64,000 nt of DNA from Escherichia phage phiWec187, in the sequence record LC739536.1. One strand, written 5' to 3'. The position numbers were made by a program, and so were the translations under genes. The notes below the pieces were generated by a model that saw only the letters and a list, made by a program, of their open reading frames with translations, searched no databases and was not told the DNA's origin. This document shows positions 3,285 through 30,899 of this stretch, piece after piece (position 1 is the stretch's first letter; the number at the start of each line of letters is the position of its first letter).

Positions 3285-3296
3285 TAGGAGGTTTAC

Positions 3297-3845
3297 ATGC
3301 TTATAGCTAGTGACCTTGTACCTATGATCCGCATATTGGTATTTAACCCTTCACAAGAAACACTTCCTGATGCAATGATTGAACAAATCATTCAAACGTG
3401 GATAGATGTGCTAGGGAATGATGATGCCAATAAATGTGCTGTACTGTGGAACAGTCTGATCTCTGTACTTGAATACTTGTGGAATACAGACGTACTAAAT
3501 CATAATACACAAACAGGTGGTGCTCTTTCTAGAAAAGAGAAAGTTGGCGAAGTACAGGTTGAAGTAACCTTTGGTACTGGACAGACAGAATACATTTCAC
3601 CTTGGGAAAATATCTATAAAGGATATCTTGATGGTGATATGATGATACCTGGTTGTACTTCTGGTAGAGGTGTAACGAGTAAAGTATTAGTTGGTGGTGT
3701 TGATGCTCGCGAAATTGATCGTGTCAACAGTGATCCTAATTCAGTAAATGGTTTAGGTGGTGTTGGTAGTGTAGATCGACATACGAGAAATATCAAATAT
3801 ACCAGAAACTATGGCCCCATTGGTTACTACAGAAGGGATAAATAA
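3297..3845 (+). CDS. hypothetical structural protein (head-tail joining region)
   Basis: ORF with RBS AGGAGG; gene order. Confidence 0.3.
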   Translation: MLIASDLVPMIRILVFNPSQETLPDAMIEQIIQTWIDVLGNDDANKCAVLWNSLISVLEYLWNTDVLNHNTQTGGALSRKEKVGEVQVEVTFGTGQTEYISPWENIYKGYLDGDMMIPGCTSGRGVTSKVLVGGVDAREIDRVNSDPNSVNGLGGVGSVDRHTRNIKYTRNYGPIGYYRRDK

Positions 3846-4333
3846 TGAAATGTGAGATCACACGTGGCGATGATATGTCGTTAGATGAATATTTTATTAA
3901 AATGCTGGCTCTAGATAATATAGAAATAGATGCTGGTTTTCTTACTGCTGTTCGCCATCCAGAATCAGATCTCACTATCCCTGCAATTGCTGCCATACAA
4001 CAGTTTGGTAATGAAACAAACAATACTCCTGCACGTCCGTTTTTAACGGACGGTGCAGTCCATGCCAGTAAAGAAATACCTAAGCATTTTGAAGAAGTGT
4101 TTAGAAATTATTTACTTCGTGGAAGGGGTTTAGCTGCCTTTGAACCTATTGCAAAAGTTTCACGAGAATCTATTGCTAAAGCGATTGCTCTGCAACGTTA
4201 TAGACCGCTATCTCCTGTGACTATTAAAATCCGTAGAGATAAAGGTAACTACTCTTCTCATATTCTTATTGATACTGGACACTTAATTAACAGTATCGAA
4301 TCAGAAATCAAGAAGGGTCGTTCTAAAAAATAA
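3845..4333 (+). CDS. hypothetical structural protein (head-tail joining region)
   Basis: start overlaps the upstream stop (ATGA); gene order. Confidence 0.3.
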   Translation: MKCEITRGDDMSLDEYFIKMLALDNIEIDAGFLTAVRHPESDLTIPAIAAIQQFGNETNNTPARPFLTDGAVHASKEIPKHFEEVFRNYLLRGRGLAAFEPIAKVSRESIAKAIALQRYRPLSPVTIKIRRDKGNYSSHILIDTGHLINSIESEIKKGRSKK

Positions 4334-4334
4334 C

Positions 4335-4363
4335 TTGCAATAAGTCTGTTTTTGATGTATACT
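4335..4363 (+). promoter_or_regulatory. sigma70-like promoter (TTGCAA, 17 nt spacer, TATACT)
   Basis: -35 ttgcaa at 4335-4340, 17-nt spacer, -10 tatact at 4358-4363, upstream of the RBS/ATG at 4378. Confidence 0.35.
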
Positions 4364-4377
4364 AAAAAGGAGATACA

Positions 4378-4794
4378 ATGCTATTAGACCAATTTACTCT
4401 CCTTGATCTTACAACGTATCAGGGTCGTAAAAGAACCTATGTTCAAGATCCTGATTCGCCAATTTCCAATATGGGTAATACAGTAGCATACGAAGACTTT
4501 ACAATAGAGGCTGCAAGTTTGCAACCAATATCAGGTAGAACACTTCAAGCACTGCCAGAAGGATACAGATCTAAGGCACAATATAGCTTCTGGACAAAAA
4601 CAGAAATCAGAGGCATTCAGCAAGGATCAGATCAATTATCTGACCAAATACTAATAGATGGACAATGGTTTTCCATTTATTCTTTGAAAGACTGGACAAG
4701 AACATCTTTCTTAATACACACACATTGTGTTGCTATTCTAGATGACCAGAATAACACCTATTCTTATTCTGAGGAGGGTGGTAATTTTGGCTAA
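4378..4794 (+). CDS. hypothetical structural protein
   Basis: RBS AAAGGAGA then ATG; gene order. Confidence 0.3.
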   Translation: MLLDQFTLLDLTTYQGRKRTYVQDPDSPISNMGNTVAYEDFTIEAASLQPISGRTLQALPEGYRSKAQYSFWTKTEIRGIQQGSDQLSDQILIDGQWFSIYSLKDWTRTSFLIHTHCVAILDDQNNTYSYSEEGGNFG

Positions 4795-5443
4795 TATCTA
4801 TGAACAAATTGAATTGTATGAAAATACGATATTATTAAATATCGCTAAGTTCTTACAAAGACTCGTGGGGCTTCCGGTTTATGTTATGGATAAGCCATTT
4901 GTTAAACCAACAACCCCATATCTGACATTACGTATTGTATCATCTGATGATTCAGGTGGTTGGTCACAAAAATATTCTTTTAGTGAAGATGCGTTTTCAT
5001 ATCTAATGGACAATAAGTATGAAATAGAACTTATGGCTTTTAGAGGAAGACCAATGACACTTTTAAGTTATGTTCTTGCGGCACTTCGTGGTGCAGATGA
5101 ATTAAAATACCAGTATCTTTATTCCAAAGGTATTAGCTTCTTGTCTGCAACAAATGTTGCACAGGCTAACACTGTTCTGGATGGAGATAAAACTGAACAA
5201 AGAGCGAGAATATTTCTTACATTCAATACTACGATGGTTATTGAGGATTTAGTAACTACCGAAATTGAAGCAATTAATATGAACATTCATTCGTTCAGAG
5301 ATGATTACGATGATCCTACTCCAATAGATCTTCCTTTGGATAAGATTTACATTGTTGCTCACAGAAGTAAAACCTATTACTTTACGACGACTGATGATGG
5401 ATCATTAATTAAGTATATCCCAACGGATAATTCATTGGAATAA
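4787..5443 (+). CDS. hypothetical structural protein; start re-assigned to TTG at 4787
   Basis: ORF track starts at 4742 inside the upstream gene; GAGGAGGG RBS 8 nt upstream of TTG 4787 gives a more plausible start with an 8-nt overlap. Confidence 0.3.
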   Translation: MANIYEQIELYENTILLNIAKFLQRLVGLPVYVMDKPFVKPTTPYLTLRIVSSDDSGGWSQKYSFSEDAFSYLMDNKYEIELMAFRGRPMTLLSYVLAALRGADELKYQYLYSKGISFLSATNVAQANTVLDGDKTEQRARIFLTFNTTMVIEDLVTTEIEAINMNIHSFRDDYDDPTPIDLPLDKIYIVAHRSKTYYFTTTDDGSLIKYIPTDNSLE

Positions 5444-5463
5444 AGTTTCTAACAGGAGCATAA

Positions 5464-6870
5464 ATGGCAACTTTTCGTGATAAGGTAGTTTCCGTAACCC
5501 TTACCTACGGTGCTACTTCAATTAGTGAAACACAGTTTGATATCCCTCTAATTCTTACAGGGCATAACGTTACTGGCAATCTTGTAGATTATTTCACTTC
5601 TTCAGACGCACTTCTGCAAGCAGGTTTTGGCACTGCCGATCCAGCTTATAAAATGGCAAAACTACTATTTGACGGTCTGTTCGCACCAGAACAAGTTATC
5701 GTCGGTAAGCGTGATGTTTCTAAAACGACTCTAACTCCAGTAGTTGAAGATAGTGCAACTTACGTTATCACTATTAAAGCAAATTCAAAAAGCAAGGACT
5801 TCAAGTTTGTTGCCGATGATACTGCAACTGCTCAAGAGATTGTTGTTGGTTTAACAGAAATGATCAACGCAGACGTAGTGTATAAAGAATTTTTCACTGT
5901 GTCAAACGATGGTAGTGTTATCACTGTAACCCCAGTTGCAGGTAAATACGCTACTATGGATAGTTCAGGATTCACAACTAACGTAGAATATGCAAATGAT
6001 ATCTTAGAAGATATTGCTAAAATTGCAGACTATGAAAACAGTTGGTTCTGGTTACTATCTGATTCTCACGCAGAACAAGATATTATCGATCTAGCAGGTT
6101 ATGTAGAAGAGCACGATAAAGTGTACTTCTTCTCTACCTCGCAACCAGGTGTTCTAACTAAAGAAGAAGATAACATTCTAGAACGCTTAGGTGATATGGG
6201 CTACAATAACACTTGTATGGCATTGTGGATGACTAACGCTGATACAGTGTTCCCAGAAGCTGCTGTAGTTGGTTCTATCTGCTCTGCAACACCAGGTACT
6301 ACTACCTTGCATGGTAAAACCCTTGTTGGTATCGAGATTGAAAAACTTGGTCAGACAGCAGAAAACTTTATCGTTCAACAGAATGGTAATATTTACCGTA
6401 AAGAACACGGTGTTCTGTTCTACCGTGATGGCTTCATGGTAAGTGGTTTCTATGTTGACTATGTGGTACACGCTCTGTGGTTCAAAGCTCGCGTAGAAGA
6501 ATCTCTGTTCGCTCTATTCAAACAGCAATCTATGCTTGGTAGTGGTGTTAGAGCAACTTCTGCTGGTCTTGCTTTGATTCGTCAGGCTGTTACTGCAAAC
6601 CCAATCCAAGTAGGTATTAACAATGGTTCTATTGCCAATGAGGTAGTAACTTCAGAGGAAACAGGACTTCTGGTAAGCCTTAAACCTACTATCTATATCC
6701 CATCTCGTGCAGATATGACTGATGCTCAAATCAATGCACGTTTGGTTGATGGTATGGTTATTGAATACGTATATGCTGGATTCTTCCACTATGTTAAAGT
6801 GCAGGTAAACGTTCTGACGAACCGCACTGCAAATAGCCAGAATTCCAATAGCTCTACTGTATCTTCATAA
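5464..6870 (+). CDS. tail sheath protein (contractile tail)
   Basis: 468 aa; position immediately upstream of tube, chaperone pair and tape measure; size typical of sheath proteins. Confidence 0.55.
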   Translation: MATFRDKVVSVTLTYGATSISETQFDIPLILTGHNVTGNLVDYFTSSDALLQAGFGTADPAYKMAKLLFDGLFAPEQVIVGKRDVSKTTLTPVVEDSATYVITIKANSKSKDFKFVADDTATAQEIVVGLTEMINADVVYKEFFTVSNDGSVITVTPVAGKYATMDSSGFTTNVEYANDILEDIAKIADYENSWFWLLSDSHAEQDIIDLAGYVEEHDKVYFFSTSQPGVLTKEEDNILERLGDMGYNNTCMALWMTNADTVFPEAAVVGSICSATPGTTTLHGKTLVGIEIEKLGQTAENFIVQQNGNIYRKEHGVLFYRDGFMVSGFYVDYVVHALWFKARVEESLFALFKQQSMLGSGVRATSAGLALIRQAVTANPIQVGINNGSIANEVVTSEETGLLVSLKPTIYIPSRADMTDAQINARLVDGMVIEYVYAGFFHYVKVQVNVLTNRTANSQNSNSSTVSS

Positions 6871-6877
6871 TTAAAAG

Positions 6878-6897
6878 CAGCGGGGGAAACCCCGCTT
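6878..6897 (+). terminator. hairpin (partial terminator or attenuator) between sheath and tube genes
   Basis: stem agcgggg / ccccgct with gaaa loop; weak T tract. Confidence 0.4.
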
Positions 6898-6928
6898 ATA
6901 TGAAAAGTAGTATAAAAGGAGATCCACT

Positions 6929-7408
6929 TTGGATAAAATGCTTACTGGCGTAATGGCCTATGATCCTTCTCAAGTAATCCTGTCTTTGGGTGGTTGGGAA
7001 CCTTGGGGTTTCGCCGCAGATACCAAAATTGTTATTAACAAAACTAACGATATCATCAACCCATATTCAGGTACTGATGGTGACGTTTCCTTGGCTCTTA
7101 GTCGTAACCGTTTAGGTACGCTAACAATGTCACTGCAACGTACTTCCCCAGCAAACGAAGTTCTTGCTGCTTATGCACAAACGATGTATTCTACTCGTCA
7201 AGTAGCATTTAGCGTATATCTAGAAGACCCTCGCGGATATTATATCAGCACAATTGGTTGGATTCAAAGCCAACCGGACGACACTATTGGTGAAACTATT
7301 CAAGAAAACCAATGGGTAATTGGTCTTAAAGATGCAAGCCTACTTCGTTCTACTGTAGGTGTTGGTGTTAACGCACTTAACTCTATTAGTGCTCTAACTA
7401 TTCAGTAA
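6929..7408 (+). CDS. tail tube protein
   Basis: 159 aa, directly downstream of sheath; followed by a terminator. Confidence 0.5.
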   Translation: MDKMLTGVMAYDPSQVILSLGGWEPWGFAADTKIVINKTNDIINPYSGTDGDVSLALSRNRLGTLTMSLQRTSPANEVLAAYAQTMYSTRQVAFSVYLEDPRGYYISTIGWIQSQPDDTIGETIQENQWVIGLKDASLLRSTVGVGVNALNSISALTIQ

Positions 7409-7411
7409 CAA

Positions 7412-7437
7412 AAAGGGCAGAAATGCCCTTTATTTTT
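7412..7437 (+). terminator. rho-independent terminator after tube gene
   Basis: stem agggca / tgccct then tatttttaaa. Confidence 0.55.
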
Positions 7438-7451
7438 AAAGAGAGGAAATA

Positions 7452-7934
7452 ATGGAACAACAAAAAGATAATACTATTGCAAAATTTGCTCGTCCAGAAG
7501 TAATGGTTGAAATTGATCTGGATGAAGGACGCAGTGTAAAATTTAGAGTTCTCAAGTGGAGTCCAACTAAAGTTTTTGAAAGGATTCCAGAACTAGGTAG
7601 TGTACTAGCTGTTCCTATGACAATGTATAATACTGCTCTTATGTCAGCAGACGAAGATCTAGAAGCTCGTATTGCTATGGCGCTGATCCAATTATTCAGT
7701 GGTCTGGAAGAAAAAAACTTAGCCGCATTCTTACGTAAAATTTTAGATGAAGTTTACACAGAAGCAGGTCACAGTGTTTCCGATAATTTTGATGAATTGT
7801 TTTTTGCTCACCCAGAATTAGTTGTTGACTTAGCTGCAAAAGTTCTTGAGGTGAACTATGCCCCTTTTTTCAAACGAGGTTTCGGAAAACTGTTGACCCA
7901 ATTTCAAGGAATAGAGACTCTAGCGAAGAGTTAA
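7452..7934 (+). CDS. tail assembly chaperone (upstream frame)
   Basis: 160 aa between tube and tape measure; contains a slippery heptamer near its 3' end. Confidence 0.5.
   Translation: MEQQKDNTIAKFARPEVMVEIDLDEGRSVKFRVLKWSPTKVFERIPELGSVLAVPMTMYNTALMSADEDLEARIAMALIQLFSGLEEKNLAAFLRKILDEVYTEAGHSVSDNFDELFFAHPELVVDLAAKVLEVNYAPFFKRGFGKLLTQFQGIETLAKS
7865..7871 (+). other. candidate programmed -1 ribosomal frameshift site T_TTT_TTC
   Basis: heptamer in X_XXY_YYZ register of the 7452 frame; the -1 frame is open from 7871 to the stop at 8209. Confidence 0.45.
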
Positions 7935-17230: not shown

Positions 17231-19306
17231 ATGAAACAGGCTATTTTTACTGTAACTCGAAATACGAGAGTAAATGCCAGTTCATTCAGCTATAAGACCG
17301 TCGATGGAACGGCGGTCGCTGGTAGAGATTATGTAGCTAAACAGGGAACAGTAACGTTCCCTTCTGATGCAGATTCTGCTACTGTAGTGGTTGATGTATA
17401 TGAACGCCCGGCAAACTCTTTAGATCTTTATTTTACTCTTGAGATTACTAGCATAAGTCAAAATAACATGATGATCAATGAAGAAATTCGTTGTGTTATT
17501 ACGACTAATCAATCGAATACAACCCCGCTAACTTGGCCTGTTGTGAAGTCTAGAATGTTTGATCCTAAGTTTTGGACAATAGATTCTCAAGCAACAGAAA
17601 GTTGTTCTATTATCTCTAATGGTGATTCTTTCACAGCAAGAATGGTTAATAGGACAGTGGCTGGTCTTGCTGGGATTATTTGGTCAACTTACGATAAATA
17701 TGATCACAAAGGATTAGGCTACCAAGAACATTCTGATTTAAGTAAAGAAAAACTTTGGTTTAAAATGGAACTTAGTCAAGGTGTTCCTGGATTAAAAGAA
17801 GAAAAATTAATGCCATCCTTAACAGTGACACTGAAGGATGAAACAGTTCATTATATATCTCTAAACTTTTATGCAGAAGAAGTTTCAGAGGACGGTAAAA
17901 CAGCAATAATCAAATTAGATTTCTCAAATTTAAAATCTGGGCCAGAAAATGATATTGTTGTTGACACTACACAGATAGATAACATGTTCTTCTCCTTGAT
18001 TTCCGCAAGGTATCAAGAAATTGAAGATGTTATACCAGTAGACAATATAGATCTTTCCTTTAAGTTTACCATACTAGAGCCTGATACTGGTTACAGTATG
18101 ATGAATATGGGTAATTTAAATGTTCCGGCGCACACCATAAGAATGTGTACATCTTATGATGATATGTATAACCTAACCCCAGAGCGAGTTATTTCTAACA
18201 CCTATAGATTAGGTTATAGAGATATGATTAACCATTATAATGGTATGTCACACTATTATCAATTTAGTTGGGATGCTGGATCTAATAAATGGGCTTTGAA
18301 CAGAACAGAATATTTAAACCCAGCAACAGAGGCCTGGTTTGATAATTTCCACGCTAATGCAAAAGCTATGGGCTACACAGTAATGAACTCCTTAAGTTTT
18401 GAAATTATGAGTACAGTGTGTCCTGTAGAATGGGTACAACATACTTGGAATGATGATCTGGCTGCTACAGGTTATGAGCCACCAAGTTATGTTTTATCTC
18501 CTTCAATTGATGAAGGGATGAATTATTTACAAGGTGTAATAAATAAGATAGCTTCTATATCCGCTGCTAATGATCTTCCGGTTATTATTCAGGTTGGTGA
18601 ACCGTGGTGGTGGTATAACACAGCTACCAATCTCCCGTGTATTTATGATTATGCAACCAAAGTTGCATTTAATAATGAAACTGGATTATATGCACAAGAT
18701 GTTGGTACAGTTAAGAATTATAAAACTGGTACACCATATGATGAATATTATGCATTCTTATCTAAAACATTAGGACTGCGTGTTGCTAAATTTGCAACAG
18801 ATACTAGATTAGCATATCCTGGAGCAAAAGTTACATTGTTACCATTTGTACCATCCATCTTAGGTAACGGTATGATGGAATTTGTTAACTTCCCTAAAGA
18901 TTATTATATCCCAGAAAACTTTGACTTTTATTGTTCAGAATGTTATGACTGGTTGTTGGAAGGTCAGATGGAAAGATCTTTCGATGCTATCACAATACCT
19001 AATGAACAATTAGGTTTTAGTTATGATAAGATACATTATCTTGCAGGGTTTGTTCCAGATGCAACTCTAGCACCATTATATGGCTTTGATCCTGAATCAG
19101 ACTACAGAACATATTTGTGGAAAATGATTATAGGTAATATTGTATTGAATGACCAGAGGTTTGTTGGTTTGTATCAATACATATGGGCTTATCCACAAAT
19201 TATGGCAGATTCATTAACTGTTCTTAATTCAAAATCCCAAGTTTTTTATATGGGTAACGTACCTCTGAATGTCTTTTTACAAGATACAGTATATGTTTCT
19301 TCTTAA
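17231..19306 (+). CDS. large virion structural protein
   Basis: 691 aa ORF; gene order. Confidence 0.3.
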   Translation: MKQAIFTVTRNTRVNASSFSYKTVDGTAVAGRDYVAKQGTVTFPSDADSATVVVDVYERPANSLDLYFTLEITSISQNNMMINEEIRCVITTNQSNTTPLTWPVVKSRMFDPKFWTIDSQATESCSIISNGDSFTARMVNRTVAGLAGIIWSTYDKYDHKGLGYQEHSDLSKEKLWFKMELSQGVPGLKEEKLMPSLTVTLKDETVHYISLNFYAEEVSEDGKTAIIKLDFSNLKSGPENDIVVDTTQIDNMFFSLISARYQEIEDVIPVDNIDLSFKFTILEPDTGYSMMNMGNLNVPAHTIRMCTSYDDMYNLTPERVISNTYRLGYRDMINHYNGMSHYYQFSWDAGSNKWALNRTEYLNPATEAWFDNFHANAKAMGYTVMNSLSFEIMSTVCPVEWVQHTWNDDLAATGYEPPSYVLSPSIDEGMNYLQGVINKIASISAANDLPVIIQVGEPWWWYNTATNLPCIYDYATKVAFNNETGLYAQDVGTVKNYKTGTPYDEYYAFLSKTLGLRVAKFATDTRLAYPGAKVTLLPFVPSILGNGMMEFVNFPKDYYIPENFDFYCSECYDWLLEGQMERSFDAITIPNEQLGFSYDKIHYLAGFVPDATLAPLYGFDPESDYRTYLWKMIIGNIVLNDQRFVGLYQYIWAYPQIMADSLTVLNSKSQVFYMGNVPLNVFLQDTVYVSS

Positions 19307-19317
19307 GGATCTCTAGT

Positions 19318-19563
19318 ATGAGAAAATTTTTAATAGGTATGTTTTGTACATATCCTGATAATAAAGTCAGTTCTACTAAAGTTTGGAATGCTATTGGTAT
19401 GATTGTTATGTCCAGTATGTTTATTTATTTGGGAATTGATAAAGAAATTCCTGAATGGATGGGCTGGGCTTTTGTTTTTATGATCACACCATCCAGACTG
19501 ATGAAGAATTTAATAGATTTACGTTGGGGCAGATCACCTGCCCCTGATAAGGAGGATAACTAA
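19318..19563 (+). CDS. small membrane protein
   Basis: 81 aa with two hydrophobic segments. Confidence 0.3.
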   Translation: MRKFLIGMFCTYPDNKVSSTKVWNAIGMIVMSSMFIYLGIDKEIPEWMGWAFVFMITPSRLMKNLIDLRWGRSPAPDKEDN

Positions 19564-22688: not shown

Positions 22689-23240
22689 ATGAAAAAAGAT
22701 GTTATTTACACTGGCTTTGAACTATATCAACCAGAATTGACAGAAGAAAATGTCATCTATCTTTCAATAGGTGCTGGTTTTCTTAAAGATAAAGATGGTA
22801 ATGATTGGTACGAAATTCAGAAATATTTATCCAAAAATTACCCTGATGCCTATTTCTTAACTCTAGATCACAACAATGTAGTTGTTGCAGCTACGAAAGA
22901 TGTTTCTACATATTTTCCCGCTGGTCTTACTGTTCTTGTAACATACAATGTTCCAGATAAAATAGAAGAAGAAAGCAACCTAGGGTCGTGGAGATATGAC
23001 AATGGTAAGTTTATTTCTCATAATGGGTTTGCAATAGAAGATGCCAACCTTAAAATGGAAAAAGAATTAACTTGGGCCACAAATCAAATATCTGCAATTC
23101 AAGATTTAGAGGAATTACAAGGTTTATCTGAAGAACAAAAAGATTGGTTAGGAAAAGTTAAACTCTATCGTGCAACATTAATTCAAATTAACGTTGAAGA
23201 TGCACCTAATATAACTTGGCCTACAAGACCTAAGAAATAG
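22689..23240 (+). CDS. hypothetical protein (possible fibre assembly factor)
   Basis: gene order between fibre genes. Confidence 0.25.
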   Translation: MKKDVIYTGFELYQPELTEENVIYLSIGAGFLKDKDGNDWYEIQKYLSKNYPDAYFLTLDHNNVVVAATKDVSTYFPAGLTVLVTYNVPDKIEEESNLGSWRYDNGKFISHNGFAIEDANLKMEKELTWATNQISAIQDLEELQGLSEEQKDWLGKVKLYRATLIQINVEDAPNITWPTRPKK

Positions 23241-23249
23241 GGGCAATGT

Positions 23250-23591
23250 ATGGAGCTAACAGAAGTATGGGATATCGCTAAAGAGGCGATTATCCCTCTT
23301 ATTGGCGTAATCTGGGTGGTCTTCAAACAGAAGATAGATGATATGGCAAGTGATTTGGATAAAATGGAAGACAAATACCGCGAACTAGAAAAGAAGTTGG
23401 TGTTTGTTGAATCCACTTATGCTACCAAAGCAGAACTTGCTCAAATGCTTAACCAGATCAACTCTACATTAATGGCAAATAATACTGCCTTAGAACAGAA
23501 GATTGAAAAAATAATGGATTTAAAAAATGCTCCTGTTCAATTAATGCTAGAGGAGATTACAAAGCGCACACAAAGTAAGGACAAAAATTAA
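23250..23591 (+). CDS. hypothetical coiled-coil protein
   Basis: 113 aa; hydrophobic N-terminus then coiled-coil. Confidence 0.25.
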   Translation: MELTEVWDIAKEAIIPLIGVIWVVFKQKIDDMASDLDKMEDKYRELEKKLVFVESTYATKAELAQMLNQINSTLMANNTALEQKIEKIMDLKNAPVQLMLEEITKRTQSKDKN

Positions 23592-26005
23592 TGGCGAATT
23601 TTCCAACATATCCTGCTACGACACTAGAACAAGGTGTTGATCTGGTTATATTCTCGTCTAACCAGATGCATGATGTTATTAATGGGGATGCTACAGCAAC
23701 TGTAGAAACCGAAACAGGTTTAATACCTACACTGCGTAAAGCACTTGTTGATAACTTCTTCTTTAAGAGTCCTGTTGCTTGGTCAGCAGGATCAACTGAA
23801 ACTGTATTTAACCAGTTACGTTATTTTGAAAACGGTATCTTGAGTGGGTACTATTATGCCCCATCTGCCACTACTGCGAACCCTGTACCTATGCAGGGCA
23901 CACCTGTAGGGGACAGTAACTGGACTCTGTACGCTCTTAAAACTGAACAGTTAGCTTCAGATGTGTATCCTTGGTATTTTAAAGGTGCTACAGGATATGA
24001 AACAGAAATCAGTCCTCCTTATATCTTTGATAATGCTATTGTCACCATTAACGGTGTAATTCAGATTCAAGGTGAAGCATTTACTATCAAAGATAGTAAA
24101 ATTATTCTGGCAGAACCATTAGGTTTAGATCCGTCTACTGGTCTACCTAACAAATTGTTTGCTTTTATTGGTAAAACAACAGCTTCTACTTCTTACGTAG
24201 AGAAAAACCTTTTGTCATCTACTACTGGTGCAGCAATGGTTGGTCTTCCATCTGGAGGCAACCTGTTACAAGCTCAATACTTTGTAACGCCTGAGCAGTT
24301 TGGTGCAATTGGTGATGGAGTTACCGATGATACTCAAGCAATTTTAAAAACTATCACTTTCGCTAACACGAATAACATTCAAGTACGTGCAGATAAGAAT
24401 TATAGATTCACAAGCTCAATTGCTATGTCTGGTATTCGTTGGTATGGTGGTACATTCACTGGTAACGGTGGAACAATGATTTCTACTGTGTCCTGTTGGA
24501 TGGAAAACGTTCGCTTTGAAAAATGTTATGTTAAGATGTTAGGTGGTGATTGCCGATTCTATCGTAATATCTTCTCCAACGCAACATCTACAGCAGCATT
24601 CTTAATGCAAGCAATGACAAGTGAAGGTACGTTGGACTTCAGTTACAACGAAATGTATGGTTGTAAATATGCGATCCTGCAACAAGGTACTGGAGAAGTA
24701 ATGACCTACGGGCGTTACTCTAACAACTATATTCACGATATCAAAGGTGATGCTATTGAACTTAACGTAGTTCAAAAACACTACACTGAAGGTTTGATTA
24801 TCGAGAATAACCACATTGCTAACGTAGATGCTTCTGGACAAGGTGCAAACTGGGGTATTGGTATTGGTGTAGCAGGTAGTGGCCCATATGGTGTTGATGT
24901 TCCTGATTCACAATATGTACGTAATTTCAGTATCGTTGGGAATAGGGTTTACAATTGCCGTCAATGTTTACACGTTGAAATGGGTAAAAACTTCACAATA
25001 CGTGATAATGAAGTTTATCCTAACACAGCAGTTTCAACAGGTACAGGTTTAACTACTTGTGGTGTTGCATTATACGGATGCCAAGATTTTGAAGTTGATG
25101 GTTTAACTGGTTATCTGCTCAATGATCCGTCTGTTTCAACACGTATGGTCTTTATTGACTGGGGTGTTAACAGTGGAAGATATGCGGGGCCACCAATTAA
25201 CTTTACAATTAAGAATTTGGATATTCCAGAATCTTCAATTGAGATTGCAACATCTGGATCAGATGCCTGGGAAAACTCTACAATTGTTAGTAATATCAAT
25301 TGTAATATTTTTAAATGGCGTGGGCTACCATCTAGCTCTACCTTTAATAATATTCGTTGCCGTAGTATTGACTTTATTGGTCAACACGGAAGCGGAGAAG
25401 GAAGTGGTGGCGGTTTCTATACTCGCAGCCAATTCACGTATATGAAGTGGGTAGGATGTACAGCACTTAGCGGAGATGAAACAACAGTTTCTTTTGCTAA
25501 AATCTACACTGATCGTTGCGATCAGGTTGGAAATAACTTTGGTGTTCCAACTGCTGTTGATGGTACAGGTCATCGTGGGCCAGTTTTAACTACTATTTCT
25601 GAACAATATTTTACAGCTTATGATGAATTCCCAGGTGGGCGTGAATTCCCTACTGGAACAGTTATTCATTGTGCAAGCGGTAAAAAACATGTTGTTACAG
25701 TAGGTGGTGCTTTCTTTAGTGACAACGAGAAAATAAAAGCAACTGTTACAGGTCAAACCTATCTACAGTCTAATGCTTTAAACTGGGCTAGTAATGGCTA
25801 CGCTAAAGCAGCAGGTACTAAGATTGTTATTCCAGGTGCAGGTGCAAATGGCGGCGATCTTGTGACAACTATAGCACGTGCTACATATGTGACAAATAGT
25901 TTGTACACAATAGATATTGCAGATCCAATTGTAACACCTACAGCAGAGAATACACAAATTAAAGCTCTGAATCCTGTTACTTTTGTTACTGTCAATAATG
26001 CTTAA
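23591..26005 (+). CDS. tailspike with pectate-lyase-type right-handed beta-helix (putative polysaccharide depolymerase)
   Basis: 804 aa; TPEQFGAIGDGVTDDTQAI matches the pectate-lyase superfamily signature; repeated G/N/V/I-rich beta-helix-like segments. Confidence 0.65.
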   Translation: MANFPTYPATTLEQGVDLVIFSSNQMHDVINGDATATVETETGLIPTLRKALVDNFFFKSPVAWSAGSTETVFNQLRYFENGILSGYYYAPSATTANPVPMQGTPVGDSNWTLYALKTEQLASDVYPWYFKGATGYETEISPPYIFDNAIVTINGVIQIQGEAFTIKDSKIILAEPLGLDPSTGLPNKLFAFIGKTTASTSYVEKNLLSSTTGAAMVGLPSGGNLLQAQYFVTPEQFGAIGDGVTDDTQAILKTITFANTNNIQVRADKNYRFTSSIAMSGIRWYGGTFTGNGGTMISTVSCWMENVRFEKCYVKMLGGDCRFYRNIFSNATSTAAFLMQAMTSEGTLDFSYNEMYGCKYAILQQGTGEVMTYGRYSNNYIHDIKGDAIELNVVQKHYTEGLIIENNHIANVDASGQGANWGIGIGVAGSGPYGVDVPDSQYVRNFSIVGNRVYNCRQCLHVEMGKNFTIRDNEVYPNTAVSTGTGLTTCGVALYGCQDFEVDGLTGYLLNDPSVSTRMVFIDWGVNSGRYAGPPINFTIKNLDIPESSIEIATSGSDAWENSTIVSNINCNIFKWRGLPSSSTFNNIRCRSIDFIGQHGSGEGSGGGFYTRSQFTYMKWVGCTALSGDETTVSFAKIYTDRCDQVGNNFGVPTAVDGTGHRGPVLTTISEQYFTAYDEFPGGREFPTGTVIHCASGKKHVVTVGGAFFSDNEKIKATVTGQTYLQSNALNWASNGYAKAAGTKIVIPGAGANGGDLVTTIARATYVTNSLYTIDIADPIVTPTAENTQIKALNPVTFVTVNNA

Positions 26006-26008
26006 TTA

Positions 26009-26031
26009 AAAAGGGGCGAAAGCCCCTTTAT
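26009..26031 (+). terminator. terminator hairpin after tailspike gene
   Basis: stem aaggggc / gcccctt with gaaa loop; A/T-rich flank. Confidence 0.5.
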
Positions 26032-26046
26032 AAAAGGAGTAGTAAA

Positions 26047-28008
26047 GTGATTTTAACACGTCCAAATAGTGCCATTGCAGACATGGTAGAGTCTCGCTAT
26101 AGAAAGCGTAGAAGTTTTGCAAGTGGTTTTACCTTAAGAGATGCTCGTGAAGCATTGCTCTTTGAAACTGACGGTAACTACTATCAGTGGAAAGGTTCTC
26201 TACCTAAAGTTGTACCTGCTAACTCTACTCCTACATCTACTGGAGGGATTTCAGATACAGCTTGGAAAAATGTGGGTAATGCAGATGACATTGCTCAAAT
26301 AGAATCAGAATTAGATGCTATTGAAGCTGAAATTGAAGATCTTAGAGAATCCATTCCAGAGGCTGGTAAATCAGCTTACCAGATTGCCGTAGACAATGGT
26401 TTCCAAGGTACTGAGACAGAGTGGTTGGCTTCTTTAAAAGGTGATCCAGGTGCTCCATTAAAGCTACTAGGGACGCTATCTAATACCAACCAATTACCTA
26501 CAACTGGAAACAATGCAGGGGATGCATGGATTGTAGGCGAGAATATGTATGCTTGGGATGGTACTGCTTGGAGAAAAGTAAACTCACAGGGGCCAGAAGG
26601 TAAATCTGCTTATGAAGTATGGCTTGCAGCAGGAAACGAAGGTACAGAACTAGATTATCTTGCCGCAATTAAAGGTGATAAAGGGGAGCCTGGCCCAGAG
26701 GGGCCACAAGGTGTGCCAGGTAATAATGCTAATGGTTTTGATTACCAAGGCGCAGCTAATTCCGTTTCAGATCTTCCTTCTGCATCTCCTGGAAACACAT
26801 CTCAAGCATGGAGTATTGGTACATATCTATACGTGTCAAACGGTGTAGAATGGATCAATATGGGCGCTATAGTGGGGCCAAAAGGAGATAAAGGCGACAA
26901 AGGAGATAAGGGTAACACTGGTGATTCAGCTTATCAAGTCTGGTTAAATGCTGGTAACGTTGGTACTATTGACGAATATATTGCCTCTCTGAAAGGAGAA
27001 AAAGGTGATAAGGGAGACAAGGGTGATCAAGGTGAACAGGGTATACAAGGCTTGACGGGGCCAACTGGTGCAGGGTTGACCATTATTGACATTCTGACTA
27101 GCACTTCTGAACTACCACAAACTGGAGAAGATGGCGATGGTTATCTGATCAATAATGAACTTTGGGTCTGGTTGCAAGGAGCCACAGAGTGGACAAATGT
27201 TGGTCGTTTAGCTGGTACTCCAATCACTGCAAAAGGACACGTTGCGTCTGCAAGTGCACTTCCTCCTACAGCCAATTACGGTGATGCTTATCTGACGGAA
27301 GATACAGGTCATCTTTACATTTACACCTATGATGAACAAACTCAAACTGCTGAATATGTAGATATGGGTAGTTTGAAAGGTGATAAGGGTGAAAAAGGTG
27401 ACGCTGGTACTAACGGTACAGACGGTGCAACTTGGATTGTTAAAACAACAGATCCAATCTCTAGTGATGGTAAACAAGGTGATTATGCCTTTAATATCTC
27501 CACTGGCGAGGTGTTCTTAAAAACATCTGCAACTATCTGGACTTCTCAAGGTACACTACCTAGTATCACAGATGCACCTAGTGATGGTAAGACTTATGCT
27601 CGTAAAGATGGAGCATGGGAAGAACTCACTAATTCTGTAGATGGTCAAGATATAGTTCCAACAAAAGTAACAACTAATTTTATAGAGGTTACAGCATATA
27701 CTAACAATTCTGTTACAGGGGACTGGACACCTCCAGGAACACATAACATGAATGTGTTGAATCTTACTGGTAACTCTACTATAAAAGCATGGCCTGGTGT
27801 CGAAGATAGCACAAAACCTAAACCATTCTCTGCAATAGTTTATCTTATCCAAGATGCCACTGGAGGTCGTACTGTTACTTTAGATCCATCTTACAAAGTA
27901 ATTGGTTCCAGTGATATTAATACAGATCCTAACGGAGTAACAATACTACAACTAACATATTGTGGTGTTGGCGATTACGTGGATGCTATTGTTGCTAAAC
28001 GCACATAA
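26047..28008 (+). CDS. tail fibre with collagen-like Gly-X-Y repeats
   Basis: GTG start after AAGGAG; GDKGEPGPEGPQGVPG, GPKGDKGDKGDKGNTGD, GEKGDKGDKGDQGEQGIQGLTGPTGAG. Confidence 0.6.
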   Translation: MILTRPNSAIADMVESRYRKRRSFASGFTLRDAREALLFETDGNYYQWKGSLPKVVPANSTPTSTGGISDTAWKNVGNADDIAQIESELDAIEAEIEDLRESIPEAGKSAYQIAVDNGFQGTETEWLASLKGDPGAPLKLLGTLSNTNQLPTTGNNAGDAWIVGENMYAWDGTAWRKVNSQGPEGKSAYEVWLAAGNEGTELDYLAAIKGDKGEPGPEGPQGVPGNNANGFDYQGAANSVSDLPSASPGNTSQAWSIGTYLYVSNGVEWINMGAIVGPKGDKGDKGDKGNTGDSAYQVWLNAGNVGTIDEYIASLKGEKGDKGDKGDQGEQGIQGLTGPTGAGLTIIDILTSTSELPQTGEDGDGYLINNELWVWLQGATEWTNVGRLAGTPITAKGHVASASALPPTANYGDAYLTEDTGHLYIYTYDEQTQTAEYVDMGSLKGDKGEKGDAGTNGTDGATWIVKTTDPISSDGKQGDYAFNISTGEVFLKTSATIWTSQGTLPSITDAPSDGKTYARKDGAWEELTNSVDGQDIVPTKVTTNFIEVTAYTNNSVTGDWTPPGTHNMNVLNLTGNSTIKAWPGVEDSTKPKPFSAIVYLIQDATGGRTVTLDPSYKVIGSSDINTDPNGVTILQLTYCGVGDYVDAIVAKRT

Positions 28009-28010
28009 TC

Positions 28011-28036
28011 AAAGCCCCTTCTGGGGCTTATTATTT
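28011..28036 (+). terminator. terminator hairpin after collagen-like fibre gene
   Basis: stem aagcccc / ggggctt then tattattt. Confidence 0.5.
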
Positions 28037-28047
28037 AAGGAGATTAA

Positions 28048-30867
28048 ATGTATCCTATTCCTTTATTTATGTCAACAACATCAGCTTCAGTAGTAACAGC
28101 TACATCTATAACTACTTCCTCTATTGGTATTGCAATAGTTGGTGGTAAAAAACAACTGACATACACAGTTACACCGGAAGATGGTGCATTATTTGATATA
28201 GCTTTTTCATCTTCAGATAATACCAAAATGGTTATAGATAATAGTGGTATGATGGAGTTTGTTGCCGAAGGTGGTTTTGATGCAATAATGACAGCTAAAA
28301 ATAATTTAGGTGCTGTCTTAACTGATCAATCTGGTGGTTATGCTTCAGAATTAAGTGTGTACACTGAAAGTCTATCGGCTATGGATGTAGGCACTACTCA
28401 ACAGTTGGTTGCTACAATCAGTCCAGAAGGTGCTAAAGACCTTCCAGATATGGTAATTACATACACCACAACAGATCCAGAAGTAGCTACTGTAAGCCCT
28501 ACAGGGTTAATAACTGCTCTTAAAGATGGCGGTTGCCGTATAGGTTGTACTGCAACGTATCAAGGAACAGTTGTGGCCTCTGATAGGTCTTATTTAGGTG
28601 TTAATGCTATTCCTGTTATTTCTAATGTAACAGCCGTGGCAAACAGTTATGGAGACGTTCGTGTTGCTTGGGATGTAACTGATCCGCTAGACGGTGATAC
28701 TTATACTGTAGAAGTATTAGATTTAAGTAATAATAGTGTTCAGTGGACTACAACAACCACGAATACTTACGCTTACTTTGATATCTCTGACTCTATTCCT
28801 CTTTATGGGTTTGCTCCAACATACCTTAAAATTAGCGTTAAGAGCACCAAAGCAGCAGCCGTTATCTTTAATAACTCAATAGCTACAGATGATTCGTTCA
28901 TTAAAGAAGTTATTGTCTTTGCTGGACAAGATAACGTAAATGCACACTTTACAGAACTATCTGGTGCAAATAAAGCAGCAATGAGTAGCACAACAGCCCG
29001 TAATGCATATGCCACGCAACGTGGTTTAGCAAATGCTGAAGTTCTTCCGTTAAATACAGCTTCTGGATCATCAGCAGCAGATAAATATGCAGATGATAAA
29101 GCCGGAACAGGAACACCAGACAACTACTGGTATGATCTGGATAACACAGCAGATGGGCCATGCTTAACTAACTTTATCACTAAAGTCACACCTTATGCAA
29201 GTAAGGTTAAAGCCATTATTTGGGGACAAGGTGAAAATGATGCTGTATCAGCATCTTCGACTGTTGCAGGTAGGTACAGTAACACTACACGTTACCATGA
29301 TGCTACGATAGCCATCTTTGATAAGATGCGTACAATAGTTCCTGCTTCTCAAGCAAAAATTGTTTGGCAGATCCTAGGACGTTCTTATTTATATGGTGTA
29401 GAAGTTAATGGTGTGGATTGGCAGAAGTACAGAAATGTACAAAGAACCATCTCTACAGCACGTGATGATGTTATCATTGGTTCTTGGGTAGATGGTGCTG
29501 AACGTTACAGTGGTTATGTTTATGAAGAAGGTATTGATGGTCGTATCCATTATATTTCTTCTGTATACCAAACAGCAGCTACAAAACTTGCTAAATCAGC
29601 AGCAGACGGTACAGACTTAACATCAACGTCACCTGTTTGGGTTGATATGGCTGTTCCAACTGGAGCAACAGCTACTTCCCAATCTAATCAAGATACAATT
29701 TTAGCATGGGATGCTCAAGGCTATAGTAAACACTACTTCCGTAATATTAACGTCTTAACCGCATCTGTATTAACTGAACAAACGCTTAATACGAACAGTT
29801 ATACGTTTACCTATGCAGATCAAGTAGCACAATATGGCTTTGCAGCAGGAACTACTATATTTGATGTTGCATATTATGACGAAGCAAATGATGTGTTATC
29901 TCCTTTAGTACGTTTTAATGTTAACGTTACAGCAGGAACCGTAGAAGATAAACCTGTAGTGATGGATTATGATTTAACACAAGAAACTCTTCCATCAGAT
30001 GTTAAGGTTAATGGTGGGAACTCTTTTGCTCGTACTTCTGGAGATACACTTGTAGCCACTAACACCTTGGTTGCTCCGTTGGAGTATATTGGTACTACCC
30101 CTGTAGGTAGACGTGTAACAGCTAACACAGCTACACAAATTTTTGTCAACAACGCCTTAACAAGTGCAAGCCCGTGGGTAAAGACCAACTTAACTGTTGC
30201 AGCTTCATCTGATAACTCTCCGGTTGGAACTACTGCTAATGTATTCAAATTAACTCCGACTACAACCTCTGGTAGTCATATCTTAACTGCAACATATACT
30301 AACGCGTACAACATATCTGCCGGACGTAACTGGTCTGCCTCTGTTTTCTTGAAAGCGAACGGGATTACTAAGGCCAAACTAAGATTAAAAGCAGGAACTG
30401 AAGTTAATGAGGGTACTTTTGATTTAGCAGCAGGTACATTCACAGGAAGTGAAGCTAATATTATATCTATGGGCAACGGTTGGTATCGTGCTATTCTGCA
30501 TAAAACAGGGATAGCCAAACAGTCCTCCATAAGTTTTGAAATAATTGCCTTGGATGCAACTGGTGCGGAGATTTTCGCTGGAGATGGTACTAGTAACCTT
30601 GCAGTTTGGTTGCCACAGCTTGAAGGTGCTTCTACAGGAGAAACATCAAAAGCTGGATCGCCTTATGTCTGCACATATCCTGGAAATTTAGGAGGAGTAT
30701 CCTTCACTATACCAAGGAACGGACATACTGGTGTGGATGTTTACTATTCCAACGGAGACGTTGTTCGTGACGTATTCTCTGGTACGGCATCTACTTGGAC
30801 AATAAACTACTCCAGCTTGTACGATTGGGGATCAGTCTTTATTACAGGTTTGAAATATTACGACTAA
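28048..30867 (+). CDS. tail fibre with Ig-like N-terminal region and putative SGNH/sialate-O-acetylesterase-like domain
   Basis: 939 aa; FAGQDNVNAH and IWGQGENDA resemble the GQSNM and WxQGE blocks of SASA-type esterases; last gene of the + strand module. Confidence 0.45.
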   Translation: MYPIPLFMSTTSASVVTATSITTSSIGIAIVGGKKQLTYTVTPEDGALFDIAFSSSDNTKMVIDNSGMMEFVAEGGFDAIMTAKNNLGAVLTDQSGGYASELSVYTESLSAMDVGTTQQLVATISPEGAKDLPDMVITYTTTDPEVATVSPTGLITALKDGGCRIGCTATYQGTVVASDRSYLGVNAIPVISNVTAVANSYGDVRVAWDVTDPLDGDTYTVEVLDLSNNSVQWTTTTTNTYAYFDISDSIPLYGFAPTYLKISVKSTKAAAVIFNNSIATDDSFIKEVIVFAGQDNVNAHFTELSGANKAAMSSTTARNAYATQRGLANAEVLPLNTASGSSAADKYADDKAGTGTPDNYWYDLDNTADGPCLTNFITKVTPYASKVKAIIWGQGENDAVSASSTVAGRYSNTTRYHDATIAIFDKMRTIVPASQAKIVWQILGRSYLYGVEVNGVDWQKYRNVQRTISTARDDVIIGSWVDGAERYSGYVYEEGIDGRIHYISSVYQTAATKLAKSAADGTDLTSTSPVWVDMAVPTGATATSQSNQDTILAWDAQGYSKHYFRNINVLTASVLTEQTLNTNSYTFTYADQVAQYGFAAGTTIFDVAYYDEANDVLSPLVRFNVNVTAGTVEDKPVVMDYDLTQETLPSDVKVNGGNSFARTSGDTLVATNTLVAPLEYIGTTPVGRRVTANTATQIFVNNALTSASPWVKTNLTVAASSDNSPVGTTANVFKLTPTTTSGSHILTATYTNAYNISAGRNWSASVFLKANGITKAKLRLKAGTEVNEGTFDLAAGTFTGSEANIISMGNGWYRAILHKTGIAKQSSISFEIIALDATGAEIFAGDGTSNLAVWLPQLEGASTGETSKAGSPYVCTYPGNLGGVSFTIPRNGHTGVDVYYSNGDVVRDVFSGTASTWTINYSSLYDWGSVFITGLKYYD

Positions 30868-30899
30868 TAAAAAAGGAGCCATTAGGCTCCTTTTCTTTT
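30868..30899. terminator. bidirectional rho-independent terminator between convergent modules
   Basis: aaaaaa, stem ggagcc / ggctcc with atta loop, ttttctttt; A-run and T-run on both sides. Confidence 0.6.

What the first reader, a model, noticed from the sequence alone, without database searches (positions are those of the whole stretch)
23591..30867. Three consecutive receptor-binding proteins with different predicted enzymatic or structural modules
A pectate-lyase-type beta-helix tailspike, a collagen-like fibre and an Ig-like/esterase-like fibre are encoded in a row, each followed by its own terminator. This suggests a branched adsorption apparatus able to depolymerise and deacetylate surface polysaccharides, and possibly a broad or multi-receptor host range.
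Basis: partly seen in the sequence, partly recalled or inferred. Interest (0 to 1): 0.4.

Follow-up and report, generated by a model that had tools for sequence, protein, structure and literature searches.

The report
Known phi92-type phage receptor-binding gene trio
These three genes are the already-described colanic-acid-cutting tailspike, collagen-like fibre and a modular glycan-binding tail protein of phi92-like E. coli phages; the third has an esterase fold but lacks the catalytic serine, so it probably binds rather than deacetylates sugars.

The parts
23250..23591 (+). Context: 113-aa phi92 gp149-like protein. By eye it has a hydrophobic N-terminal segment and a heptad-rich remainder (not computed). 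Its stop overlaps the ORF1 start by 1 nt (TAATG).
   Evidence: (phrog_15210, E 2e-70)
23591..26005 (+). ORF1: colanidase tailspike (phi92 gp150 orthologue), 804 aa
   Evidence: 6E0V, residues 180-804 near-identical; phrog_6117, E 7e-270; WcaM-like, E 5e-29
23624..23968 (+). ORF1 N-terminal virion-anchor region (aa 12-126), homologous to the N-terminus of the phiTE tail fibre protein 9CUY_g
   Evidence: E 9e-18; phrog_4549
25700..25966 (+). ORF1 C-terminal TSP_Ig-like domain (aa 704-792)
   Evidence: PF20745, 55.1 bits against cut-off 27.9
26006..26033 (.). GC-rich hairpin after ORF1 (GAAA loop). Poor U-tract on the + strand, good U-tract on the - strand. Invariant in Paula, phi92 and ALITA.
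   Evidence: -14.5 kcal/mol, z -3.1; not called on +
26047..28008 (+). ORF2: collagen-like fibre (phi92 gp151 orthologue), 653 aa, GTG start
   Evidence: (phrog_15437 full length)
26077..26277 (+). ORF2 Tail_spike_N (TSP1/gp66-type) N-terminal domain, aa 11-77
   Evidence: (PF18668, 75.6 bits against 25)
26674..27432 (+). ORF2 shaft. Four G-X-Y runs (aa 210-227, 277-294, 317-343, 445-462) are interleaved with three 'SAY...LKG' repeats and five small repeats that I take to be beta-rich.
   Evidence: (Collagen, 32.4 bits against 27.2)
27556..27633 (+). ORF2 foldon-like motif (aa 504-529), sub-threshold
   Evidence: Fibritin_C, 19.5 bits against 21; T4 fibritin foldon chains, E 0.006-0.02
27673..27996 (+). 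ORF2 C-terminal knob (aa about 543-650), homologous to the C-terminal tip of phiTE fibre 9CUY_g
   Evidence: E 7e-7; phrog_4549 C-terminus
28012..28029 (+). Hairpin after ORF2 with an interrupted U-tract (weak terminator or attenuator)
   Evidence: -13.3 kcal/mol, z -1.9
28048..30867 (+). ORF3: 939-aa modular glycan-binding tail protein (intact form of phi92 gp152/gp153)
28075..28617 (+). ORF3 tandem Big_2 Ig-like domains (aa about 10-190)
   Evidence: (PF02368, 43.2 bits against 22.8, two stretches)
28885..29652 (+). ORF3 SASA/SGNH-fold domain (aa about 280-535), flanked by beta-sandwich domains (aa 191-279 and 536-630). Homologous to N4 gp65 residues 428-1059.
28930..28932 (+). Codon GAT = Asp295, at the position of the nucleophile Ser of the family's GQSN block-I motif
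29221..29241 (+). Conserved block III WGQGEND (aa 392-398)
29548..29550 (+). Conserved block V His501
29965..30864 (+). ORF3 C-terminal exchangeable CBM-like beta-sandwich module (aa 640-939), matching the GTA head-spike-fibre domain
30871..30894 (.). Strong bidirectional intrinsic terminator at the convergence of the late structural operon and the minus-strand genes
   Evidence: (-15.4 and -18.2 kcal/mol)

Best explanation
The region holds the last three genes of the late tail/baseplate operon of a phi92-like (Justusliebigvirus) myovirus. It encodes three different host-glycan-directed virion proteins. (1) ORF1 is the colanidase tailspike. An N-terminal anchor, homologous to the baseplate-attached N-terminus of the phiTE fibre, carries a domain that hydrolyses colanic acid, clearing the exopolysaccharide barrier. 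Sequence identity is shown here; enzymology is taken from the phi92 orthologue. (2) ORF2 is a fibre with a TSP1/gp66-type N-terminal docking domain, a shaft of short collagen-like segments alternating with small repeats, a foldon-like motif and a small C-terminal knob that presumably contacts a receptor. The architecture is shown; trimeric state, receptor and position in the virion are inferred or unknown. (3) ORF3 is not a classical trimeric fibre but a modular multi-domain adhesin: two Ig-like Big_2 domains, a beta-sandwich, a SASA/SGNH-fold domain, another beta-sandwich, and an exchangeable CBM-like tip. In the SASA-fold domain the catalytic serine is replaced by Asp295, while block III and His501 are kept and the domain is under strong purifying selection. 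It therefore most likely acts as a non-catalytic 'pseudo-esterase' glycan-binding module. Together with the C-terminal lectin-like domain it would add binding avidity or specificity rather than deacetylase activity (inferred). The hairpins after ORF1 and ORF2 probably act as leaky attenuators or 3'-stabilisers within one transcript. The strong bidirectional terminator after ORF3 ends the operon (inferred).
Against: No activity or binding was measured here. The AF2 model of the central region has only moderate confidence, and His501 lies in a low-pLDDT loop, so active-site geometry could not be checked. An Asp-based or water-activating mechanism cannot be excluded, because the rest of the motif set is conserved and strongly constrained, which would also be expected of a working enzyme. 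Public annotations call ORF3 'tail carbohydrate esterase'. The dN/dS values rest on few substitutions (1-3 nonsynonymous). Neither gp150 nor gp151 could be fitted to fibre densities in phi92 cryo-EM, so their position and any branching remain unknown. ORF3 is broken in phi92, UAB_1 and possibly ALITA, so it is dispensable at least on some hosts. Presence of ORF3 in the virion was not verified.
Confidence: 0.72

Rival explanations
1. One reading: ORF3 is an active carbohydrate esterase or deacetylase fibre that strips acetyl groups from capsule, O-antigen or colanic acid during adsorption, in the way G7C gp63.1 and other SGNH tailspikes do.
For: True SASA/SGNH fold. Block III WGQGEND and His501 are conserved. 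The domain shows the strongest purifying selection in the protein. Most family members keep the full catalytic motif set and 14 of 18 hit Pfam SASA. Public annotation reads 'tail carbohydrate esterase'.
Against: The nucleophile Ser is replaced by Asp295 in every Justusliebigvirus copy checked, by Ala in the closest representative (P0077), and by Asp in the TH18/P0001/P0006 group, which also loses Gln in block I. From my own knowledge, no SGNH or SASA esterase using Asp as nucleophile has been described. Pfam SASA is below threshold for ORF3 itself.
Confidence: 0.15
2. ORF3 is not a baseplate receptor-binding protein at all. It would be an accessory decoration or adhesin mounted elsewhere (tail tube or sheath, collar or head, Hoc-like), or a dispensable moron-like addition, giving weak generic adherence to glycans or mucus.
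For: Its N-terminal Big_2 region matches Ig-domain 'major tail protein' and 'structural protein with Ig domain' PHROGs, and phi92 gp152 is annotated as having a lambda gpV-like fold. The C-terminal domain belongs to the GTA head-spike-fibre family. There is no recognisable baseplate-anchor or trimerisation domain. The gene is broken in phi92 and UAB_1 and truncated to about 628 aa in about 27 of 60 records, without loss of viability.
Against: It is the last gene of the fibre cluster, directly after gp150 and gp151. Its centre is homologous to the receptor-binding sheath protein gp65 of N4. Its tip matches the Sf11 distal-tail-protein appendage and a Pa193 baseplate wedge protein. The C-terminal module shows allelic exchange typical of receptor-binding tips.
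Confidence: 0.2
3. The three hairpins are efficient intrinsic terminators, so that ORF1, ORF2 and ORF3 are three independent transcription units with separately tunable expression.
For: A stable GC-rich hairpin lies within 3-10 nt of each stop codon. Terminator-like sites in the region exceed the shuffled expectation (15 against 8.2 +/- 2.9). Other annotators marked terminators here in Paula, PATM and phAPEC8.
Against: After ORF1 the + strand tail is UUUAUAAAAGG, with no U-tract, and the scan did not call it; Paula annotates it on the opposite strand. The tail after ORF2 is interrupted (UUAUUAUUUAAGG) and its z-score is only -1.9. The gaps are about 40 nt and hold only the hairpin plus an RBS. 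No promoter-like site lies in them, though phage late promoters are not covered by the scan.
Confidence: 0.15

Closest known systems
Phage phi92 gp150 colanidase tailspike (PDB 6E0V/6E0W)
   Same: ORF1 residues 180-804 differ at only about 3 positions from the crystallised fragment. Same gene position, same upstream gp149-like gene and same downstream hairpin.
   Different: Nothing of substance; the window's allele has a few conservative substitutions. It is a hydrolase acting on colanic acid, not a pectate lyase.
Phage phi92 gp151 'potential tail fiber'
   Same: Same length (653 aa), same GTG start with AGGAG RBS, same position; full-length match to phrog_15437.
   Different: None detected. 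Its position in the virion is unresolved even for phi92.
939-aa 'tail protein / tail carbohydrate esterase / lateral tail fiber' of alia, PaulScherrer (bas60_0037), BME3 and others; phi92 gp152+gp153
   Same: ORF3 is 97-99% identical to the long form found in 18 records.
   Different: phi92 itself carries a 218-bp frameshifting deletion that splits it into gp152 and gp153. About 27 records have a 628-aa short form lacking the C-terminal module. phAPEC8 gp086 has the Big_2 and C-terminal modules but no SASA-like domain.
Coliphage N4 non-contractile tail sheath / receptor-binding protein gp65 (PDB 9LC0, 9YF4)
   Same: ORF3 aa 192-632 is homologous to gp65 428-603, 619-1059 and 1203-1291 (beta-sandwich plus SASA-like repeats). 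Both phage groups need the NGR glycan pathway on K-12.
   Different: ORF3 lacks gp65's NCTSP_N and TIM-barrel domains, which sit instead on the separate upstream protein at 17231-19306. ORF3 has one SASA-like domain, not two, and adds Big_2 domains and a CBM-like tip. It belongs to a myovirus, not a podovirus sheath.
SASA / CE6-type SGNH carbohydrate acetylesterases (1ZMB, 2APJ, NanS 3PT5, SIAE 8F9P)
   Different: Block I reads GQDN instead of GQSN, so there is no nucleophile serine. Pfam SASA is below the gathering threshold.
Sf11 distal tail protein gp17 C-terminal appendage; RcGTA-type head spike fibre domain (NF048003); Pa193 gp46
   Different: Here the module is fused to the end of a long multi-domain protein. 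The function of the Sf11 appendage is itself unknown.
Branched tailspike assemblies of CBA120 (TSP1-4) and G7C (gp63.1/gp66)
   Same: ORF2 carries the Pfam Tail_spike_N (TSP1/gp66) domain, and several receptor-binding proteins are encoded in a row.
   Different: I did not look for the T4 gp10-like branching adaptor domains, and none turned up in the Pfam scans. Who docks on whom is unknown.

Membership tests
phi92 gp150-type colanidase tailspike (ORF1) | Sequence orthology to the crystallised or characterised protein | tested here: met
   1433 bits, residues 180-804 near-identical to 6E0V; phrog_6117, E 7e-270
phi92 gp150-type colanidase tailspike (ORF1) | C-terminal TSP_Ig-like domain (PF20745) | tested here: met
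   55.1 bits against cut-off 27.9
phi92 gp150-type colanidase tailspike (ORF1) | Hydrolysis of colanic acid | not testable with these tools
   Reported for phi92 gp150 (Xu 2025, cited in PMC13450770). Inferred for this allele from near-identity.
Pectate lyase / pectate-lyase-like superfamily (ORF1) | Profile match above threshold to a pectate-lyase-like family | tested here: not met
   PF12708 14.6 bits against 27; parallel beta-helix repeat TIGR03804 12.7 bits against 19.45. The resemblance is fold-class only, and the reported chemistry is hydrolysis, not beta-elimination.
Collagen triple-helix repeat (ORF2) | Pfam PF01391 above the gathering score, and uninterrupted G-X-Y runs | tested here: met
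   32.4 bits against 27.2; four runs of 6, 6, 9 and 6 triplets (81 of 653 aa)
TSP1/gp66-type tailspike N-terminal domain (ORF2) | Pfam PF18668 above the gathering score | tested here: met
   75.6 bits against 25; matches the N-terminal regions of CBA120 TSP3/TSP4 and other tailspikes
T4 fibritin foldon (ORF2) | Pfam Fibritin_C above the gathering score | tested here: inconclusive
   19.5 bits against 21; foldon chains at E 0.006-0.02; the motif reads ...DGKTYARKDGAWEEL
Bacterial Ig-like group 2 (ORF3) | Pfam PF02368 above the gathering score | tested here: met
   43.2 bits against 22.8, two stretches
SASA / SGNH carbohydrate esterase (ORF3 aa 280-535) | Pfam PF03629 above the gathering score | tested here: not met
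   14.3-16.9 bits against 24.8 (only the block III region aligns). However, 14 of 18 homologues match SASA at E no greater than 0.01.
SASA / SGNH carbohydrate esterase (ORF3 aa 280-535) | SGNH alpha/beta/alpha fold | tested here: met
SASA / SGNH carbohydrate esterase (ORF3 aa 280-535) | Block I nucleophile serine (GQSN) | tested here: not met
   Asp295 (GAT); fixed in six genomes; the family consensus is Ser
SASA / SGNH carbohydrate esterase (ORF3 aa 280-535) | Block III (QGExD) and block V His | tested here: met
   WGQGEND at 392-398; His501
SASA / SGNH carbohydrate esterase (ORF3 aa 280-535) | Acetylesterase activity | not testable with these tools
   Needs an enzyme assay
N4 gp65-type non-contractile tail sheath protein (ORF3) | NCTSP_N and TIM-barrel_NCTSP domains | tested here: not met
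   absent from ORF3. They occur in the separate protein at 17231-19306.
N4 gp65-type non-contractile tail sheath protein (ORF3) | Homology to the gp65 central beta-sandwich / SASA-like domains | tested here: met
   BLASTP 9e-14 and 5e-13; Foldseek 1e-26; profile 6e-50
GTA/phage head spike fibre domain (ORF3 aa 640-939) | NCBIfam NF048003 above cut-off; beta-sandwich CBM-like fold | tested here: met
Rho-independent terminator (three sites) | GC-rich hairpin immediately followed by a U-tract on the transcribed strand | tested here: inconclusive
   Met after ORF3 (30871-30894). Borderline after ORF2 (28012-28029). Not met on the + strand after ORF1.

The most novel reading that the evidence does not exclude
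ORF3 is a serine-less SASA 'pseudo-esterase' lectin. Together with the separate gp142-like protein (17231-19306, which carries the NCTSP_N and TIM-barrel domains), it reconstitutes on a myovirus baseplate the module set of podophage N4's gp64/gp65 receptor-binding sheath. On this reading, the conserved but catalytically disabled esterase pocket recognises an acetylated host glycan (NGR or O-acetylated colanic acid), and the swappable CBM-like tip tunes host range.
Probability: 0.15. Interest if true: 0.5.

Novelty: already known. Interest (0 to 1): 0.22.

Why it matters
The gene trio is part of the well-studied 'Swiss army knife' adsorption apparatus that gives phi92-like phages an unusually broad host range, which is relevant to phage therapy and host-range engineering. 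The useful new point is a correction. The protein that several public genomes label 'tail carbohydrate esterase' has the fold but not the catalytic serine, so it should be treated as a probable glycan-binding module until it is assayed. The type phage phi92 carries only a broken copy, so published phi92 structures cannot locate this protein. A long-form phage (alia, PaulScherrer or this one) would be the right specimen, and a comparison with phi92 could help with fibre assignment. The shared modules with N4 gp64/gp65 give a concrete handle on how unrelated phages that depend on the same NGR glycan pathway recognise it.

Tried and rejected
1. Word-indexed homologue searches with the ORF3 centre found only 2 and then 7 proteins, too few to judge motif conservation. 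The exhaustive HMMER search was needed.
2. phmmer of ORF3 against N4 gp65 returned nothing because of the bias filter. BLASTP, Foldseek and the profile search did detect the homology.
3. I considered that ORF3 might be the 'N4 Gp64-like glycan deacetylase fibre' of Maffei 2021 and Sellner 2021. Rejected: that protein is the upstream gene at 17231-19306.
4. I considered Asp295 to be a sequencing error. Rejected: GAT is at least 2 nt from any Ser codon and is identical in six independent genomes.
5. I considered the serine-less domain to be decaying. Rejected: it has the lowest dN/dS in the protein, although the counts are small.
6. I tried to link the ORF3 form to NGR use through phage Eryne (short form, poor growth without O-antigen). 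Rejected as evidence: the short-form phages muut, arall and outra were isolated on K-12 MG1655, and rV5-type NGR-dependent phages share only the Big_2 part of ORF3.
7. Schwarzer 2012 (PMC3457257) is not held, and the gp150 enzymology paper is known only through citation.
8. Searches for the sources of PDB entries 8ES4 and 23SH (ORF1 aa 123-197) were unproductive, so any branching-adaptor role for that segment is untested.
9. I did not read model coordinates, so Asp295-His501 geometry was not measured. His501 lies in a low-confidence loop.
Full report
IDENTITY OF THE WINDOW. Megablast of 23591-30867 finds 61 phage records, 52 of them covering at least 80% of the query. The best is Escherichia phage alia at 98.8% identity over the full length. 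All are Justusliebigvirus (Stephanstirmvirinae), the phi92-like myoviruses. The annotated neighbourhoods of phages Paula and PaulScherrer are collinear with the window. The order is baseplate hub, spike, gp25-like, two large fibre genes, gp6-like wedge, short tail fibre plus chaperone, a small gp149-like gene, then the three genes of the finding. A bidirectional terminator and minus-strand replication genes follow.

THE OBSERVATION. They are clearly real genes.

ORF1. Residues 180-804 align to PDB 6E0V/6E0W ('bacteriophage Phi92 gp150') at 1433 bits, with about three conservative differences. PHROG calls it 'colanic acid degradation' (E 7e-270). NCBIfam shows homology to the host colanic-acid protein WcaM (E 5e-29). 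Pfam finds the C-terminal TSP_Ig-like domain above threshold, but the pectate-lyase-like profile reaches only 14.6 bits against a cut-off of 27. According to the 2026 phi92 structure paper, gp150 has been shown biochemically to hydrolyse the beta-1,4 Glc-Fuc bond of colanic acid (Xu et al. 2025, cited in PMC13450770). So 'pectate-lyase-type' is acceptable only as a fold-class label; the enzyme is a glycoside hydrolase. The N-terminal 12-126 residues, absent from the crystal, match the N-terminus of the phiTE tail-fibre protein 9CUY_g (E 9e-18). In phiTE the fibre N-termini are the parts resolved on the baseplate wedge and sheath initiator. This suggests direct baseplate anchoring, which is an inference.

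ORF2. This is the gp151 orthologue. Pfam gives Tail_spike_N (TSP1/gp66 type) at 75.6 bits for aa 11-77, Collagen at 32.4 bits (above threshold), and Fibritin_C at 19.5 bits, just below threshold, for aa 504-529. Direct inspection shows four uninterrupted G-X-Y runs (aa 210-227, 277-294, 317-343, 445-462; 81 of 653 residues). They alternate with three 'SAYxx...LKG' repeats and five small repeats. The C-terminal knob (aa about 543-650) matches the C-terminal tip of the same phiTE fibre protein whose N-terminus matches ORF1 (E 7e-7). The two ends of a phiTE-type fibre are therefore distributed over ORF1 and ORF2. 'Collagen-like fibre' is a fair description, though collagen-like segments make up only about 12% of the protein.

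ORF3, THE CATALYTIC RESIDUES. In the alignment of 97 domain copies, the family consensus at ORF3 positions 293-296 is G-Q-S-N, with Ser in 51 of about 67 aligned copies. ORF3 reads G-Q-D-N. The family profile's 'GQsN' aligns to the 'GQSNMAG' motif of 2APJ and 1ZMB, which from general knowledge of the SASA family holds the catalytic serine. Block III (WGQGEND, aa 392-398) and His501 are conserved. The nearest representatives are informative: P0077 (51% identity) has GQAN; the P0006, P0001 and TH18 group has GGDN; P0079 and P0078 (about 50%) keep GQSN. The serine has therefore apparently been lost more than once in this clade. Asp295 is encoded by GAT, at least two changes from any Ser codon. 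It is identical in the window, Paula, PaulScherrer, PD06, Nernie and ALITA. The domain is not decaying. Against PD06 and Nernie its dN/dS is 0.054 and 0.024, the lowest of all ORF3 domains, though the counts are small. The most economical reading is a non-catalytic, binding-competent 'pseudo-esterase' domain. An unconventional catalytic mechanism cannot be excluded without an assay.

RELATION TO N4. ORF3 aa 192-632 matches N4 gp65 residues 428-603, 619-1059 and 1203-1291. The upstream protein at 17231-19306 (phi92 gp142-like, outside the finding) carries Pfam NCTSP_N (E 1e-20) and TIM-barrel_NCTSP (E 9e-82). It matches gp65 residues 55-416 plus N4 gp64 residues 107-367. This upstream protein, not ORF3, is the 'glycan deacetylase fibre' shared between N4 and Vequintavirinae relatives that Maffei 2021 and Sellner 2021 discuss. 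The modules of the N4 gp64/gp65 sheath are thus split over two proteins here. Both phage groups depend on nfrB and wecB (the NGR glycan) on K-12. I found no solid evidence linking ORF3 itself to NGR. rV5-type phages share only its Big_2 part, and short-form phages were isolated on K-12.

TERMINATORS. All three genes are followed within a few nucleotides by GC-rich hairpins (-14.5, -13.3 and -15.4 kcal/mol; z -3.1, -1.9 and -3.8). Only the last (30871-30894) has a proper U-tract, and it is bidirectional (-18.2 kcal/mol on the other strand). The hairpin after ORF2 is followed by UUAUUAUUUAAGG and was called by the scan. The hairpin after ORF1 is followed by UUUAUAAAAGG, was not called on the + strand, and has its U-run on the minus strand. 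It is invariant in Paula, phi92 and ALITA. The gaps are about 40 nt and contain only the hairpin and an RBS, so a single transcript with partial attenuation is more likely than three separate units. This is an inference.

WHAT IS KNOWN ALREADY. The multivalent adsorption apparatus of phi92-like phages, with several co-expressed tailspikes and fibres, is established (Schwarzer 2012, as cited). Even so, the 2026 cryo-EM study could not assign gp150 or gp151 to fibre density. The BME3 paper notes the 939-aa protein as a variable tail fibre unlike that of phi92. I found no paper analysing its domains or the missing serine. Some genome records label it 'tail carbohydrate esterase'.

VERDICT. The deacetylase inference is not supported. 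The terminator detail is only partly right.

Noticed in passing
window 17231-19306 (+): The phi92 gp142-like fibre carries Calx-beta, NCTSP_N (E 1e-20) and TIM-barrel_NCTSP (E 9e-82). It matches N4 gp65 residues 55-416 plus N4 gp64 residues 107-367. Together with ORF3 it covers the module set of the N4 gp64/gp65 receptor-binding sheath, split over two proteins 9 kb apart.
   Followed up: partly
window 19306-19563: The variable tailspike slot that holds the endosialidase gp143 ('fiber I') in phi92, and bas60_0027/0028 in PaulScherrer, is empty here. The gp142-like gene is followed directly by the 81-aa gp144-like gene, as in phage Paula.
   Followed up: partly
L003 (phi92) 3001-4663: The type phage phi92 has a 218-bp frameshifting deletion in its ORF3 orthologue, annotated as two genes, gp152 and gp153. 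Published phi92 structures therefore cannot contain this protein.
   Followed up: yes
window 29959-30867 (ORF3 nt 1912-2820): The C-terminal CBM-like module is 96.6% identical at nucleotide level in Klebsiella phage ZCKP1. It is replaced by a highly divergent allele in Nernie, EmilieFrey and JohannJBalmer, and is absent from about 27 short-form genomes. This points to recent module exchange.
   Followed up: partly
window 23250-23591 (+): A 113-aa gp149-like protein that by eye has a hydrophobic N-terminal segment and a heptad-rich remainder (not computed). PHROG labels it 'lipoprotein', with weak Rz-like spanin hits. Its stop overlaps the ORF1 start codon (TAATG), suggesting translational coupling with the colanidase. 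Its role is unknown.
   Followed up: no
public records MG065639, MG065656, MG065689, MG065645, MG065650: Several GenBank records titled 'Campylobacter phage' (A150, C3, A110a, A145, B15; about 146-151 kb) match E. coli Justusliebigvirus or Phapecoctavirus genes at high identity. A150, C3, A110a and A145 are 94-98% identical at nucleotide level; B15 matches only the Big_2 segment (61.5% aa). These are probably mislabelled or contaminant isolates.
   Followed up: no
L011 (ALITA) 4958-7777: In phage ALITA the ORF3 orthologue is annotated as two CDSs, a 719-aa 'tail carbohydrate esterase' and a 172-aa 'tail protein', despite 98.8% nucleotide identity. This is either a nonsense or frameshift difference or a sequencing error.
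   Followed up: no
L008 (N4) gp65 aa 440-602: The first SASA-like domain of N4 gp65 keeps a Ser at the nucleophile position (FAGESQ) and block III (WGQGDQD). The second copy is degenerate (GINQ...). Whether gp65 has esterase activity appears not to have been discussed.
   Followed up: no
L002 (PaulScherrer) 23118-26432: PaulScherrer's DNA polymerase is annotated as intein-containing, whereas Paula's polymerase gene in the collinear position is shorter (2580 nt) and has no intein annotated. I did not check the window's own polymerase gene.
   Followed up: no
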